NCBI GenBank assembly: GCA_964106915.2
Contig: OZ066925.1
From: Podarcis gaigeae
Lineage: Eukaryota
Strand: one strand, 5' to 3'
DNA length: 64,000 nucleotides
Positions within the stretch are counted from its first letter, which is position 1; every line of letters begins with the position of its first letter. Made by a program: the position numbers. This document shows positions 41,601-50,600 of this stretch, one piece after another.

Positions 41601-44600
41601 AAGTAATGAGCTAAACATTACCAGAAAAGTTTTAAAGAAAATGTTAAATAATTCCATAGAAATTGTGCTACACTCTGATATTTTGAGGTAGTATGAATGA
41701 TCAAATCTGTGCTGTGAATCATAAATTATTATTTATCCTGAAAAATAATATCCTGAAGTGCCATGATTCATAGAGGCGTAATGTTTTTCCCCCCTCCATG
41801 ACTTTCAATTTTGTATTTTGAGGGGGGAGGAAATGTGAAGAAACACTGATAAAACCTGCTATGCATTATTTTCTCTTTTGGAATGAATTAATTGCTTTTA
41901 GGACAAAATTTCATCTACATGTGTGTTGTATGAAGATTTTTATGTGGAACAGTTTCATAGCATTTGAGAATGATATTCTCTGTCCCAATAGTATATACAC
42001 ATGTGTAATACATACAAAACTTAAAAGCGAGATTCCGTACAAGAGGGTGCTGCTACCTTTATACAAGGAATAGATAAGTCCCATGTTTCTTAACTATTGC
42101 CTGCCTTCTTTTTGTGACTTCGTTCTAGCCTGCATCTGCTGTCTTGTTGCTTAAACAAAATTAAGGTTTCAATCCTAGAGATGCTTACCTGGGAGTAAGT
42201 CCCACTGAACCATTGGGGCTAATTTCTGAGTAGACATGCATAGGACTACACTGTTAAGTCATTTATACTTTTGAGGTTGCAAGCCTATGGATACTTAAGC
42301 AAGCACCACTAAATTGCTTATGAGCATACATTGCTTTAGGACCGCCCTGCAAATTTCATGTATAACTTAGTGTTGTACTAGCCAATATACAGTCGTACCT
42401 TGGAAGCCGAACGCCTTGGCTCCCGAACAAATTGGCTCCTGAACACCCTGTCACGGGGATTCGAACCGCTGACCATTCAATTGGCAAGCCCAAGCAGCAC
42501 AGTGGTTTAACCCACAGCGTCACCCATATCCCTAACCACTGTATTAGCAACACATTTAACATTAAAACAATAAATTAAAGTTCAGTACTGCCCCTATTTG
42601 GGACGCGGGTGGCGCTGTGGGTAAAACCTCAGCGCCTAGGACTTGCCAATCGCATGGTCAGCAGTTCGAATCCCCGCGGCGGGGTGCGTTCCCGTTGTTC
42701 GGTCCCAGCGCCTGCCAATCTAGCAGCTCGAAAGCACCCCTGGGTGCAAGTAGATAAATAGGGACCACTTACCAGCGGGAAGGTAAACGGCGTTCCGTGT
42801 GCTGCGCTGGCCACGTAACCCGGAAGTGTCTGTGGACAGCACTAGCTCCCGGCCTATAGAGTGAGATGAGCGCACAACCCTAGAGTCTGGCAAGACTGGC
42901 CCGTACGGGCAGGGGTACCTTTACCTTTTACCTTTACTGCCCCTATTGCAGTCCCCCCCCCCAAAAAATGTGACCATGTTGAAACCATGGATGTTACTCC
43001 ACCCATCACCTTGAGTATTTTGTCACTTGATACCTACAACTCCTTCCACTTATAATGTTTCTTTTATCACTGGAAAGTTGTTCCAGTCAGTGGATTTGTC
43101 ACTGGAACTATTCCCACCTCACCTATGTTTGTGAAGTGGCTACATCTAATGCACACAAGCAGGTGGACACTTCCCCTTTGACTCAGGGCTCTCCTTTGCA
43201 CACTTAAATGCCACAACACCTGACCCAACCCAACAGTTGCGTAATGGTGGTGCCAGGAACTGCTGCTACTCCTGTTCATGCTTCCTCTTTGCAGCAACCA
43301 TCCCATTGGCATTCCTAGTGCTGCACATGCCTTCTCAAGACCTATGAACCTCAGGGCTTGCATGACCAAGAAGCATGTCTCTGTCATCTTGGCACTGGGA
43401 CTATTACTCCCTGCTCTATTAATTTCTGTGTTGAAACAAGTCTACATCTTTGTTGCCAGGGCAACAGGGCAGAAGTCTTCTGTTGCGGCTTTGATGCCCA
43501 TTCAACCAACTGAGTCACTCTGTTCTGCTGCAGTGGTTGTTGCCACACTTCAGAAAGGTGTGTGTGTGTATGAAGGGAGAGAGGGCTAGGAATTATGAAA
43601 GCCCCTGAATTAATATAGCTCAGTGTTATTCAGTCAGGTTTTAATGTTCTTTGGTTAACTTTCAGTTAAGTTACAAAATTGCAGCAATTCGTTTTTCACC
43701 ATTAATGTTTAACAAAAGACTGCCGGTAAGAAATAAATGATTATGAAGAAGGTGCAAATACTTCAGGAGACGCTCATAATAGTAGCTCAGGCATTGTATG
43801 TTATGAAAAGGGGCTGCAACTGAAGTATAATATTTCGGGCCAGAGTTAGCATTTCAGCATATACATTAATTAGGAGGAAAACCGGTGTACAGTGGTACCT
43901 CGGGTTAAGTACTTAATTCGTTCCAGAGGTCCGTTCTTAACCTGAAACTGTTCTTAACCTGAAGCACCACTTTAGCTAATGGGGCCTCTGTTGGGATTCG
44001 CAGGATACTGGATAAGTCTGCAGGCTTCAACAGGATGATGCAATACTCTGCTGGGTCAGAGTGACTCAACAGGAGTGTGATTTGTGTGATTGGCTATCAC
44101 CTGTTTTAAAAGGAAAGCCTGTTTAACAGTGGGTGTGGTGGTTGTGCTGTAGTGTGGTGGTGGAGAGTATTCGTTTGTAAGTACTCTGTATGGACTGTTT
44201 CTTTTGTAAATGCCTGTATCTAGCTCACATTAAAAAAGACTGCACTGGAAAAACCTGGAACTCTTAGCGTCTCTGCTAAAAGCGCCACGTGGAATACGCG
44301 ACAGGGTTATGGGCCCAGCACGCTTCCACTGCGTAAGAGTACAGGTGGCAGTTATCTAGCCGTGGGTGCTGGAGGTGAGCTGCAGGGATGGAGCAGTCCA
44401 GAACTGGCGTGTTGCTGGAGAAGCTGACAGCCACGAACTACAGCATCTGGTCGGTCCGCATGCAACACTTCCTCAAGCGTGAGGGCCTGTGGAAGGTGGT
44501 GGAAGTGCCACCGCAGCCCCCTGAGGAGGATGAAAAGGATGAGAAAGTTTTGGCTACGATCATCCTTGGAGTGGACGACAGCCAGCTAGTCTACGTAGCT

Positions 44601-47600: not shown

Positions 47601-50600
47601 CCCATAACTACCCAGTACAAAAATGAACCAGAAGGGCAAAAATGTGAGAATGCAACAGCGTTTCATTCTCTGTTGGGTTCTCTGTTATATTTAAGTTGTT
47701 GGACAAGACCCGACATAACATTGGCAGTGCACATGTTAAGCCAAAGAAGTGCAGACCCGGCTCAGAGAGATTGGGTAGCACTTAAAAGAATCCTAAGGTA
47801 TCTGAAAGGCACAAAAGATTACAAACTGGTGCTGGATACAGGATATGATCAGCAAGTCTATGCATACTCTGATGCCAGCTGGGGGGACAGAGAAAATGGA
47901 AAGTCTACCACTGGCTATGCCATATATATTGGAAATGCCCTGGTTCAGTGGAAATCCCAGAAACAAACATTTGTTGCCACAAGTACTTGTGAAGCAGAGT
48001 ACTCAGCCATAAGCGAATGTGTATCACAAATAGAATGGTTTGCTTGCCTAACAAAAGAGCTTGGAATACCTTCTGAAATGCCAATCACTGTGCTAAGTGA
48101 CAACATGGCTGCACAACAGCTTGCCAACCAACAGAACTTTAAAAGCAAGAGTAAACAATTGCTATAAGATACGGAAATGTGAAAAATGTTTTGGAAAGAA
48201 ATGTGTTAAAGGTACAGCACTGTAACACAAAATGTAATGTGGCAGATTTGTATACAAAATGTTTGGATGCTCCTAAATTTCGAGACTTAAGAGAATTATT
48301 AGGTCTCAAGCCTTTGACTTAAGGAGGAGTGTTGGGATTCGCAGGATACTGGATAAGTCTGCAGGCTTCAACAGGATGATGCAATACTCTGCTGGGTCAG
48401 AGTGACTCAACAGGAGTGTGATTAGTGTGATTGGCTATCACCTGTTTTAAAAGGAAAGCCTGTTTAACAGTGGGTGTGGTGGTTGTACTGTAGTGTGGTG
48501 GTGCTTTGGTGGAGAGTATTCGTTTGTAAGTACTCTGTATGGACTGTTTCTTTTGTAAATGCCTGTATCTAGCTCACATTAAAAAAGACTGCACTAGAAA
48601 AACCTGGAACTCTTAGCGTCTCCGCTGAAAGCGCCGCGTGGAATACGCGACAGCCTCCTGCTGCTGCTGCTGCTGCCGCGCCGCCGGAGCACGATTTCTG
48701 TTCTCATCCTGAAGCAAAGTTCTTAACCCAAGGTACTATTTCTGGGTAATCGGAGTCTGTAACCTGAAGTGTATGTAACCTGAGGTACCACTGTAGTTGA
48801 AAAAAATCATTTAGTAATGTTCCTTTGTCTGCTTTTTTTTTAAAAAAAGTAGAATGCACTGTTACTTCAGAAAACAGACTCCACCCAAAGTGGTTATTTT
48901 TTCTGTGCCTTGTTTCATTGTTGGTTTTTAGCACGTGTAGCGAGAAAGAGAGAGAGAGAGACTGTATCTGTATCTGTATACTGTATATATGAGTGAGAGA
49001 ACAGGTTTGTTATAAGAAAAGTTAACATGAGATTAAAACTGCAAAAATTGTGGATTTATTTTCGCACTTTGTCAGGGACTCGAAGGACAGTGATGGGTGT
49101 GCACCAGGAGAAGAGGGGATGGAGTCAGACTCAGGAGAGCGGGGCAGTGATTTGTGGGGAACTGTACCGATCAGGAGACAAGAGTTGGAGGCAGGGGAAA
49201 CTTCAGAGATGGAAGGTGGAGCACAGGATGGGTTGGAAGAAAAGGAGGAAGAGGCAAGTCAGGCAAGTGAGGGGACGATGCTTGCCCACCCTCTTCTGCA
49301 CCACTGTCCCAGAACGAACAGGCTGAAAAGGGCTGAATAGGCTCAGTCTTCAGCTATGTGTGCACAGTCTATTGTAGGAAGGTACATAAAAGTGGTAGAA
49401 GGGGAGTGGTCCCCTGTTGCTGCAACTGCTCCCTAGAGCACAGCCGTGTACAAATATCCAGAGCTGCAGAAAGGGCTGTAAGTGCTATCTTGGACAATAA
49501 AGAGTTAACTATTTGCCATTCCTTTGACTGGGGCGTGCTCTTGACACACTTAGGGGGCAAAATATTTTATTTGTTTGTTTAGTAAAAAAATATTCATATA
49601 GCGCTGTGTTATAAAATATCGCAGTGTTTGCAACCATGTAAAAGCATAAAGCCAGATAATAAAATCATAAAAGCTTAGAAACAGATTAAAATCAAATAGA
49701 AATCAGAAACAGACACCAGTGGAACATTGTGGGGGAATATATGCTTCATTGGCTGCATAGGCCTGGCAGAATAGAAAAGTTTTCAGCAGGCATTTAAATG
49801 TTGGCACAGAAGACACCTGCTGAATTTCAATCGGCAAGGTGTTCCACAGGACTGGGTCGATGACACTAACGGCTTGATTTCTTATAGAATACAGTACGAA
49901 ACGTGTGTGCGCATCCAAGTCTTAAACACACACTGAACCCTGTATAAAGGAGCAGAAATCTATTGTGGGATTAAGGGCTTTAGAGTGTGGTGTTCGGTTT
50001 CTTTGACTCAGGTAGGATACAATGGATGCTGACTATATTGGAGCACTGTTTGCACATGTTTCAGTCACTGCTCAGGCTTAGTTTAAAGGGAAGCATATAG
50101 CTAAATGCTGAGGATCTGTAATAAAAGCAAACATTTGTTGTTGAGCTGTAAATCTGTTAAAGCTACTCTTAAGAAGACTAAATAAATGATGCTTTTCCAG
50201 GCTCCCCTCAAAATACGCCTGCCTGTGTGATGCCTATTAATACACATACAAAGAATGCAAAGGGTTGCCAGAAATAGTGCATCCCTAAAACACCTTTTTA
50301 TGCTGCAATAAATTATTGCTTGTCACTTTTATTTTACATATTTTAAAAAGTTCTGCCCCACTTTTCACCACGTATTCCAAAGCAACTTACTGGGGGGGGG
50401 GGGTGTGGAACCATATAATATGCAAAAAAAATAAGCATACAACATTAGAGAGTAGAATATTAGAACAATATTCAAGGTGCAAAGGCCTCTTGAAATAAAA
50501 CTTTTAGCTTAGTGACAGAAACTTAACAGTTTTATTGCATCATCAACGTACATGACACTTTAAAAAGTAAGAAAAAAGTAAGATACCTAACCAGGTATAC

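What the first reader, a model, noticed from the sequence alone, without database searches (positions are those of the whole stretch)
43989..48652. Young, nearly intact Ty1/Copia retrotransposon in an amniote genome
Seen: complete LTR-PBS-gag/pol-PPT-LTR structure with a perfect 5-bp TSD. The LTRs differ by 6 substitutions in ~315 bp plus one 8-bp indel. Only two frame lesions occur in ~3.9 kb (TAA at 47568; frameshift near 48157), plus a likely Cys>Trp change in the Gag CCHC knuckle. Established: Copia elements are abundant in plants, fungi and insects but sparse in vertebrates and essentially absent from mammals and birds. Inference: the family was recently active in this lizard lineage, intact siblings probably exist, and its patchy distribution makes horizontal transfer worth testing.
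Basis: partly seen in the sequence, partly recalled or inferred. Interest (0 to 1): 0.7.

Follow-up and report, generated by a model that had tools for sequence, protein, structure and literature searches.

The report
Decaying Copia retrotransposon in a lizard genome
This is a real, nearly complete but broken copy of a Copia-type jumping gene of a kind already known to be abundant in lizards and snakes, so it is an ordinary finding.

Summary
Window 43989-48652 (+) is a 4,664-bp LTR retrotransposon. It has two LTRs of 315 and 323 nt that differ by 6 substitutions and one 8-nt indel, TG...CA ends and a 5-bp target-site duplication. An uninterrupted paralogous copy of the host repeat in the same window confirms the duplication. 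The single gag-pol gene has the order Gag, protease, integrase, RT, RNase H, which defines Ty1/Copia. Pol carries one stop and one frameshift. Gag departs at one zinc-knuckle ligand and has two in-frame length differences from siblings.

All 7 close named relatives are Podarcis lilfordi proteins from at least 5 contigs, so this is a multi-copy lacertid family. A 2025 survey found Copia in 23 of 24 squamates, about 1,000 copies in Podarcis muralis, all classified clusters in the Mtanga clade. Copia is therefore neither rare nor patchy in this group. The nearest relative outside the family is 39% identical, so there is no sign of recent horizontal arrival. LTR divergence (K2P 0.019) implies an age of millions of years.

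Verdict: an ordinary, decaying copy of a known kind. Clade membership, genome-wide copy number and assembly errors could not be tested here.

The parts
43984..43988 (.). Left copy of the 5-bp target-site duplication (GCCTC)
   Evidence: Read. The uninterrupted paralog of the host repeat has the 5-mer once.
43989..44303 (+). 5' LTR, 315 nt, ends TG...CA. It has a TATA-like run at 44104-44113 and an ATTAAA at 44229-44234; these are motif readings only.
44304..44327 (+). Primer-binding-site-like stretch directly after the 5' LTR. The 3' limit is uncertain. The complement of 44304-44316 reads as three G, a 7-nt loop with CAU at loop positions 3-5, then three C.
   Evidence: Read; hairpin drawn (not significant). 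Rfam found nothing. The 3'-end-type tRNA-Met PBS motif printed in PMC3587641 is not present here.
44388..48322 (+). Single gag-pol gene, broken. Pol has 1 in-frame stop and 1 frameshift. Gag has 1 departure at a zinc-knuckle ligand and 2 in-frame length differences from siblings.
44424..44945 (+). Gag capsid region (Pfam DUF4219 and Retrotran_gag_2); matches PDB 'Copia VLP protein'
   Evidence: E 5.1e-10 and 1.2e-25; 8vvw_A, E 1.4e-15; 8s41_A, E 2.4e-14.
45195..45428 (+). Aspartic protease region (Pfam Pol_BBD); a D-S-G motif is present
   Evidence: E 8e-14; translation.
45504..46439 (+). Integrase: gag_pre-integrs zinc region, rve catalytic core and SH3-like domain
   Evidence: E 7.2e-06, 1.1e-14, 9.7e-17; 7z0h_W 'Integrase', E 4.4e-15; PFV integrase, 2.4e-10.
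46881..48322 (+). Reverse transcriptase (Pfam RVT_2, YVDD present) followed by an RNase H-like region (TRPDI present). This is the part of pol that carries both frame lesions.
   Evidence: RVT_2, E 6.1e-57. Relatives align through it. The model of the middle stretch has mean pLDDT 86.1, with weak fold matches to RNase H1 and to the RT connection/RNase H parts of retroviral RTs (no match at E <= 0.001).
48321..48329 (+). Polypurine tract (AAGGAGGAG) abutting the 3' LTR and overlapping the pol stop codon
   Evidence: Read.
48330..48652 (+). 3' LTR, 323 nt
48653..48657 (.). Right copy of the 5-bp target-site duplication (GCCTC)
43888..43988 (+). Left half of the short host repeat (it has terminal inverted repeats) into which the element inserted
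   Evidence: 93% identical to 61338-61438 (-).
48653..48795 (+). Right half of the same host repeat. It begins with the duplicated 5-mer and a (CTG)n run.
   Evidence: 86% identical to 61212-61340 (-).

Best explanation
This is one dead or dying insertion of an autonomous Ty1/Copia LTR retrotransposon. It belongs to a multi-copy family of lacertid lizards (Podarcis).

Inferred mechanism, from the established Ty1/Copia life cycle:
- A transcript started in the 5' LTR and ended in the 3' LTR.
- It was translated as a single Gag-PR-IN-RT-RH polyprotein and packaged in Gag particles.
- Reverse transcription was primed at the PBS just inside the 5' LTR, and the polypurine tract primed the plus strand.
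- The PBS is probably of the internal 'half-tRNA' initiator-Met type used by Drosophila copia and yeast Ty5, rather than the tRNA 3'-end type.
- The integrase inserted the DNA copy into a short terminal-inverted-repeat element and duplicated 5 bp (GCCTC).

Since then the copy has decayed neutrally for several million years. The traces are 6 LTR substitutions and 1 LTR indel, 1 stop and 1 frameshift in pol, 1 changed zinc-knuckle ligand and a private in-frame length change in gag.

What is shown: the anatomy, the domain order, the target duplication, the family's presence in Podarcis and the lesion counts. What is inferred: the priming tRNA, the promoter and poly(A) signals, the age in years, and past (not present) activity.
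For: - Structure: LTRs, target duplication, PBS and PPT positions. The empty-site paralog confirms the duplication.
- Domains: Pfam order DUF4219/Retrotran_gag_2, Pol_BBD, gag_pre-integrs, rve, SH3_retrovirus, RVT_2, with 6 of 7 above their curated cut-offs; gag_pre-integrs scores 26.1 bits against 28.4.
- Solved structures: PDB 'Copia VLP protein' and integrases.
- Full length: 40 of 40 full-length relatives align over nearly their whole length, for example P0021 residues 1-1299 of 1309 and P0032 residues 1-1280 of 1283. There is therefore no large deletion.
- No further ORF of 60 aa or more lies on the + strand between pol and the 3' LTR, so there is no env.
- Family: 7 of 7 named close hits are Podarcis lilfordi proteins, on contigs of 5 different lengths. 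One further unnamed cluster is 92% identical. Eight siblings are 82-96% identical over the first 300 residues.
- Lineage features: the copy departs at 22 of 128 columns conserved in 26 distant relatives. Its nearest full-length relative P0122 also departs at 14 of those 22 columns, 9 times with the same residue. Most departures are therefore lineage traits, not decay.
- Literature: Copia is abundant in Squamata and recently active or expressed in snakes (PMC11889832; PMC8872380, passages; PMC4657000, passage).
Against: - The PBS assignment is a reading of 13 window bases plus recalled features of initiator tRNAs. Rfam found no tRNA-like match. ARAGORN found no tRNA gene in the window to compare with. 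The drawn hairpin is no better than shuffles: z = 0.99, and 167 of 200 shuffles fold at least as well.
- RNase H identity is weak. Pfam and PDB sequence searches of that stretch found nothing. Fold matches have E of 2e-3 or worse.
- The stop and the frameshift could be assembly errors; reads were not available.
- One alignment (P0003) counted 3 stops, not 1.
- The age depends on an assumed substitution rate that no call supplied (one search found none for squamates).
- Genome-wide copy number and the state of siblings were not measurable. No squamate assembly or repeat library was on hand.
Confidence: 0.9

Rival explanations
1. The family reached this lizard lineage recently by horizontal transfer from a non-squamate donor.
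For: Nothing direct from my calls. Klai et al. 2025 (PMC11889832, passages) raise horizontal transfer as one possible origin of Mtanga-clade Copia in Sarcopterygii. That is a deep event, not a recent one.
Against: - In a HMMER scan of 1.84 billion representatives, the nearest protein outside the family is 39% identical (P0122). The best in the word-indexed search is 34% (P0004). The best over RT alone is 47%, unnamed, and the best named animal hit is Trichuris suis at 44%. There is no near-identical foreign relative.
- Family members in P. lilfordi differ from this copy by 4-18% at protein level and lie on at least 5 contigs. That indicates long residence and diversification.
- Copia was found in 23 of 24 squamates and in tuatara.
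Confidence: 0.04
2. The copy is in fact intact and possibly still competent; the stop and the frameshift are assembly or sequencing errors.
For: There are only two frame lesions in about 3.9 kb. The catalytic motifs read in the translation are in place: D-S-G, the integrase zinc and acidic motifs, YVDD and TRPDI (the motif names are recalled, and TRPDI and CX2CX4HX4C are also named in PMC3587641).
Against: - The LTRs differ by 1.9% plus an indel. About 1% neutral change per copy is therefore expected, and a few lesions in 3.9 kb are the expected outcome (inference).
- Independently of the frame lesions, gag has a changed zinc ligand where 4 of 5 siblings are canonical. It also has a 5-residue length difference found in none of the 6 siblings that cover the site.
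Confidence: 0.08
3. It is an endogenous retrovirus or a Ty3/Gypsy or BEL element misread as Copia.
For: None.
Against: The integrase lies upstream of RT. The RT is RVT_2, not RVT_1, and the Gag is Retrotran_gag_2. The Gag matches the solved Copia VLP protein. There is no env-sized ORF.
Confidence: 0.01

Closest known systems
Annotated Podarcis lilfordi proteins (P0001, P0002 'Retrovirus-related Pol polyprotein from transposon TNT 1-94'; P0121 'DDE-type integrase'; P0265, P0266, P0267, P0276)
   Same: Same family. Identity is 82-96% over the first 300 residues and 93-95% over HMMER-matched stretches. Gag, protease and integrase architecture is the same.
   Different: All are partial gene models of at most 584 aa, and none includes RT. 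Seven of 8 siblings have a 14-residue longer form in gag (1 of 8 shares the window's short form). Six of 6 have a 5-residue longer form that the window copy lacks.
Mtanga-clade Copia elements of Lepidosauria (Klai et al. 2025, PMC11889832)
   Same: Host group and superfamily. That survey reports only Mtanga among Lepidosauria, with 22 Mtanga clusters in Podarcis muralis and 16 in Zootoca vivipara.
   Different: I could not test clade membership of this copy. No clade reference sequence could be fetched, and the paper's trees and sequence sets were not seen.
Drosophila copia
   Same: The Gag is recognisably homologous to the solved Copia VLP protein. Both have a single gag-pol reading region. 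The PBS appears to be of the internal 'half-tRNA' type, which PMC5371799 (passages) reports for copia.
   Different: It is a distant relative. Only Gag gave a named PDB match, at E 1.4e-15. The host and the LTR sequences differ.
Yeast Ty5 / Ty1
   Same: Ty5 primes from the anticodon stem-loop region of initiator tRNA-Met (PMC5371799, passages and reference list). The integrase matches PDB 7z0h_W, which the table names only 'Integrase'; that this entry is Ty1 integrase is recalled.
   Different: Fungal hosts. Ty1 uses the tRNA 3' end and a bipartite PBS.
GalEa-clade Copia (fish, crustaceans)
   Same: Metazoan Copia with TG...CA LTRs and a CCHC Gag (PMC3587641, passages).
   Different: The 12-nt GalEa PBS printed in that paper, complementary to the tRNA-Met 3' end, is absent beside the 5' LTR. 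With up to 2 mismatches there are 3 matches in the window, none near 44304, against 4.9 expected by chance.
Copia insertion in the corn snake OCA2 gene (amel allele; PMC4657000)
   Same: A squamate Copia element with the same domain set. It shows that such elements have moved recently in squamates (passage).
   Different: It is 5,832 bp and was reported as similar to Anolis Copia-6 (similarity 0.399).

Membership tests
Ty1/Copia LTR retrotransposon (Pseudoviridae) | Two direct LTRs with TG...CA termini | tested here: met
   LTRs of 315 and 323 nt, 309 of 315 aligned columns identical, ends TGTTG...CGACA.
Ty1/Copia LTR retrotransposon (Pseudoviridae) | Short target-site duplication (5 bp) | tested here: met
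   GCCTC on both sides. The paralogous uninterrupted host repeat has it once.
Ty1/Copia LTR retrotransposon (Pseudoviridae) | Pol domain order PR-IN-RT-RH (integrase upstream of RT) | tested here: met
   Pfam order Pol_BBD, gag_pre-integrs, rve, SH3_retrovirus, RVT_2. RH is placed after RT by alignment to 40 relatives and by weak fold matches.
Ty1/Copia LTR retrotransposon (Pseudoviridae) | Copia-type Gag and RVT_2-type RT | tested here: met
   Retrotran_gag_2, E 1.2e-25; RVT_2, E 6.1e-57. PDB Copia VLP protein, E 1.4e-15.
Ty1/Copia LTR retrotransposon (Pseudoviridae) | PBS next to the 5' LTR, complementary to initiator tRNA-Met | tested here: inconclusive
   The position is right, and the complement of 44304-44316 reads as an anticodon arm with CAU. 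No tRNA sequence was available to align. Rfam found nothing and there is no tRNA gene in the window.
Ty1/Copia LTR retrotransposon (Pseudoviridae) | Polypurine tract next to the 3' LTR; no env gene | tested here: met
   A 9-nt purine run at 48321-48329. There is no further + strand ORF of 60 aa or more after pol.
Mtanga clade of Copia | RT/RNase H groups with the Mtanga reference (Anopheles gambiae) in a tree | not testable with these tools
The assignment rests on Klai et al. 2025, who report only Mtanga in Lepidosauria.
GalEa clade of Copia | PBS complementary to the 3' end of tRNA-Met, as printed in PMC3587641 | tested here: not met
   There is no match with up to 2 mismatches next to the 5' LTR.
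Endogenous retrovirus (Retroviridae) | RVT_1-type RT upstream of the integrase, and an env gene | tested here: not met
   The domain order and families are those of Copia. There is no env-sized ORF.
Intact autonomous copy | Uninterrupted gag-pol reading frame | tested here: not met
   One stop and one frameshift in pol. Whether they are real or assembly errors was not testable.

The most novel reading that the evidence does not exclude
The family may still be moving in Podarcis, with this insertion polymorphic or species-specific. If so, its half-tRNA PBS and near-complete copies would make lacertids a good descriptive system for one question that Klai et al. 2025 leave open: did the Mtanga-clade Copia of lepidosaurs descend vertically from early sarcopterygians, or arrive by an old horizontal transfer from terrestrial invertebrates?
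Probability: 0.1. Interest if true: 0.4.

Novelty: already known. Interest (0 to 1): 0.12.

Why it matters
It matters little beyond annotation. This is a clean, well-bounded example of a squamate Copia insertion nested in a short terminal-inverted-repeat element. It could serve as a presence/absence marker among Podarcis lineages and as one data point for dating Copia activity in lacertids. The premise that made it look striking, Copia being rare in amniotes, is true for birds, mammals, turtles and crocodilians. It is not true for squamates, which hold most of the metazoan Copia copies catalogued so far (PMC11889832).

Tried and rejected
- PBS region: Rfam at a permissive threshold gave 0 matches. 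ARAGORN on the whole window gave 0 tRNA genes. Folding the PBS complement gave a structure no better than shuffles.
- RNase H stretch and the short last stretch: Pfam gave 0 families. A PDB sequence search of the RNase H stretch gave 0 matches at E <= 1. NCBIfam gave only far-sub-threshold hits: 16.4 bits against a cut-off of 175 for the RNase H stretch, and IS481/IS3 transposase cores for the integrase.
- Neighbourhood: 10 of the 19 ORFs of 75 aa or more listed within about 8 kb on either side were scanned. All 10 had no Pfam family, so no host gene or other element was recognised next to the insertion.
- Squamate substitution rate: the paper search gave none, so the rates used for dating are assumed.
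- Zhang et al. 2020 on vertebrate horizontal transfer (PMC7070016): 0 occurrences of 'copia', 'squamat' or 'lizard' in the main text.
- Llorens et al. 2009 (PMC2774666): the passages gave nothing specific on reptile Copia.
- Ke et al. 1999 is not held.
- A programmed frameshift was rejected. The frameshift lies near the end of pol, not at a gag/pol boundary, and the 7 relatives that align beyond it need a second frame of the window to do so.

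
Full report
1. What is there.

Window 43989-48652 (+ strand, 4,664 bp) is bounded by two direct repeats, 43989-44303 (315 nt) and 48330-48652 (323 nt). Over 315 ungapped columns they share 309 identities and differ by 5 transitions and 1 transversion, plus one 8-column gap. Two of the six differences are in a CpG context. The p-distance is 0.0190 and K2P is 0.0194. The repeats begin TGTTG and end CGACA. The five bases GCCTC flank the element on both sides, at 43984-43988 and 48653-48657.

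The duplication is not a chance match. The element sits inside a short repeat of about 230 bp, and the same window holds an uninterrupted copy of that repeat at 61212-61438 (- strand). I aligned the two flanks separately. The left flank (93% identity) ends, and the right flank (86%) begins, at a single GCCTC in that copy. A blastn of the LTR and of the internal part against the window found no other copy, fragment or solo LTR. The window has no N.

2. Internal anatomy.

Directly after the 5' LTR lies a PBS-like stretch (44304 to about 44327). Directly before the 3' LTR lies a 9-nt purine run (48321-48329) that overlaps the last stop codon.

Between them is one gag-pol reading region, 44388-48322. 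I searched its stretches separately, each ending at a break. The long first stretch carries these Pfam families in this order: DUF4219 and Retrotran_gag_2 (44424-44945), Pol_BBD (45195-45428), gag_pre-integrs, rve and SH3_retrovirus (45504-46439), and RVT_2 (from 46881). Six of the 7 score above their curated cut-offs; gag_pre-integrs scores 26.1 bits against 28.4. An integrase upstream of an RVT_2 reverse transcriptase, together with a Retrotran_gag_2 Gag, is the Ty1/Copia arrangement.

Against solved structures, the Gag part matches 'Copia VLP protein' (8vvw_A, E 1.4e-15; 8s41_A, 2.4e-14). The integrase part matches 7z0h_W 'Integrase' (4.4e-15) and foamy-virus integrases (2.4e-10).

The stretch after RT has no Pfam or PDB sequence match. 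It does contain the TRPDI motif that PMC3587641 names for Copia RNase H (translation). It aligns at 18-42% identity with the C-terminal parts of 25 relatives. Its model (mean pLDDT 86.1) gives weak fold matches to RNase H1 and to the connection/RNase H parts of retroviral RTs. The best E is 2e-3, and 0 matches reach E <= 0.001. I read it as RNase H, with that caveat. There is no further + strand ORF of 60 aa or more after pol, so there is no env.

3. State of the genes (counts only).

Forty of 40 full-length relatives (1,261-1,380 aa) align to the internal region by tblastn over nearly their whole length. Examples are P0021 residues 1-1299 of 1309 and P0032 residues 1-1280 of 1283, so nothing large is missing. 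Thirty-three of the 40 align in one frame only, 7 have a further piece in a second frame, and none use a third. Thirty-nine of 40 cross exactly one in-frame stop. P0003 counted three, which I did not resolve. Pol is therefore broken twice, by one stop and one frameshift, both in the RT-RNase H part.

The frameshift is not a programmed gag/pol shift. It lies near the end of pol, and the 7 relatives that align beyond it need a second frame of the window to do so.

Gag shows three further peculiarities against eight sibling proteins:
- One of the four zinc-knuckle ligands is not canonical. Four of the 5 siblings covering it are canonical; the fifth diverges over the whole stretch.
- A 14-residue length difference: the window has the short form, shared by 1 of 8 siblings.
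- A 5-residue length difference: the window has the short form, found in none of the 6 siblings that cover the site.

Motifs expected for protease (D-S-G), the integrase zinc and acidic residues, and RT (YVDD) are present in the translation (the motif names are recalled).

Against 26 distant relatives, the copy departs at 22 of 128 columns that at least 90% of them share. Its nearest full-length relative, P0122, departs at 14 of those same 22 columns, 9 times with the same residue. The other relatives depart at a median of 4 (range 0-17). Most departures therefore look like lineage traits rather than decay.

4. Priming.

The complement of 44304-44316 reads as three G, a seven-base loop with CAU at loop positions 3-5, and three C. 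That is the shape of a tRNA anticodon arm with a Met anticodon. Three G:C pairs next to the loop are, from recalled knowledge, a hallmark of initiator tRNAs.

PMC5371799 (passages) states that Drosophila copia uses a 'half-tRNA' and that Ty5 primes from within the anticodon loop of initiator tRNA-Met. The conventional PBS motif complementary to the tRNA-Met 3' end, printed in PMC3587641 for GalEa-type Copia, is absent next to the LTR. I therefore propose internal initiator-tRNA priming.

This remains a reading, not a test. Rfam found nothing, the window has no tRNA gene, and the hairpin is not better than shuffles.

5. Relatives and host.

In the word-indexed search, 508 proteins passed E <= 0.001 among 8,000 scored candidates. 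The two best are Podarcis lilfordi proteins, and the next best (P0004) is 34% identical. Among shorter proteins, 17 passed. Five more are from P. lilfordi and one unnamed cluster is 92% identical. All 7 named close hits are thus from one lacertid lizard, on contigs of five different lengths.

The 84% identities are lowered by gaps in the gene models. Over matched stretches the identity is 93-95%, and over the first 300 residues it is 82-96%.

The exhaustive HMMER scan of 1.84 billion representatives found 136,350 proteins at E <= 0.001 and 13,074 at E <= 1e-30. Outside the family, the best is P0122 at 39%. With RT alone, 1,561 proteins passed among 3,730 candidates. The best identity was 47% (unnamed), the best named animal hit was Trichuris suis at 44%, and none of the 120 listed rows named a squamate. 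Squamate transposon proteins are evidently poorly represented in these protein sets, so the absence of other lizards there says little. The nearest distant relatives could not be named.

6. What is known.

- Chalopin et al. 2015 (PMC4350176, passages): Copia is absent from birds and mammals but present in reptiles. They count it in the ancestral vertebrate mobilome.
- Klai et al. 2025 (PMC11889832; abstract, passages, supplement passages, supplementary file 3 read whole): Copia occurs in 23 of 24 Squamata, and Squamata hold 66% of the 49,920 metazoan Copia copies detected. Podarcis muralis has 1,004 sequences in 44 clusters (22 classified as Mtanga). Zootoca vivipara has 304 in 20 clusters (16 Mtanga). 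Only the Mtanga clade was found among Lepidosauria. The authors leave open whether this success followed reactivation or old horizontal transfers.
- Galbraith et al. 2022 (PMC8872380, passages): Copia subfamilies are expanding and expressed in hydrophiine snakes, at 0.47-1.65% of the genomes tabulated.
- PMC4657000 (one passage): the amelanistic corn-snake allele carries a Copia insertion.

A squamate Copia copy is therefore expected, not surprising.

7. Age.

With K2P 0.0194 and T = K/2mu, assumed rates of 0.8 to 2.4 x 10^-9 per site per year give 12 to 4 million years. The rates are recalled and assumed, since one search found no squamate figure. Roughly 1% change per copy over 3.9 kb makes a handful of lesions the expected outcome (inference).

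8. Verdict.

The Ty1/Copia identity, the lizard host and the existence of siblings are supported. The claims of rarity, patchiness and a case for recent horizontal transfer are not.

Clade membership (Mtanga) is likely from the literature but was not testable here. Genome-wide copy number, intact siblings, read support for the lesions and site polymorphism stayed unchecked. The one genome-contig scan covers bacteria and archaea only and was not used, as it is irrelevant here.

Noticed in passing
window 43888-43988 + 48653-48795; 61212-61438 (-); partial 26986-27092; short match 32461-32522: The Copia element is nested in a short repeat of about 230 bp. That repeat has terminal inverted repeats (27-nt arms, 81% complementary, in the intact copy) and internal sub-repeats, so it looks like a MITE. 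At least one full copy, the interrupted one, and two weaker fragments lie in the window.
   Followed up: partly
window 48658-48675: A (CTG)n run starts right after the insertion site. It is longer beside the Copia element than in the uninterrupted paralog.
   Followed up: no
window 4377-5804 (+): A 475-aa ORF has an RVT_1 reverse-transcriptase domain (E 5.1e-40). It is probably part of a non-LTR retrotransposon and is unrelated to the Copia element. A 313-aa ORF lies antisense to it at 4835-5776.
   Followed up: partly
window 44001-50000: GC skew of +0.19 and positive AT skew across the element, against -0.11 to +0.11 elsewhere in the window. The coding strand is purine-rich, as is usual for retroelements.
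   Followed up: no
window 48330-48652 versus 43989-44303: The single 8-nt length difference between the LTRs lies in a run of TGG/TGGTG-like repeats. It looks like a local slippage event.
   Followed up: no
proteins P0265, P0001, P0121 (Podarcis lilfordi gene models): Several annotated sibling proteins skip or diverge over blocks that other siblings keep. Examples are a gap of about 50 residues in gag in P0001 and P0121, and a divergent tail in P0265. These look like gene-model artefacts over decayed transposon copies.
   Followed up: no
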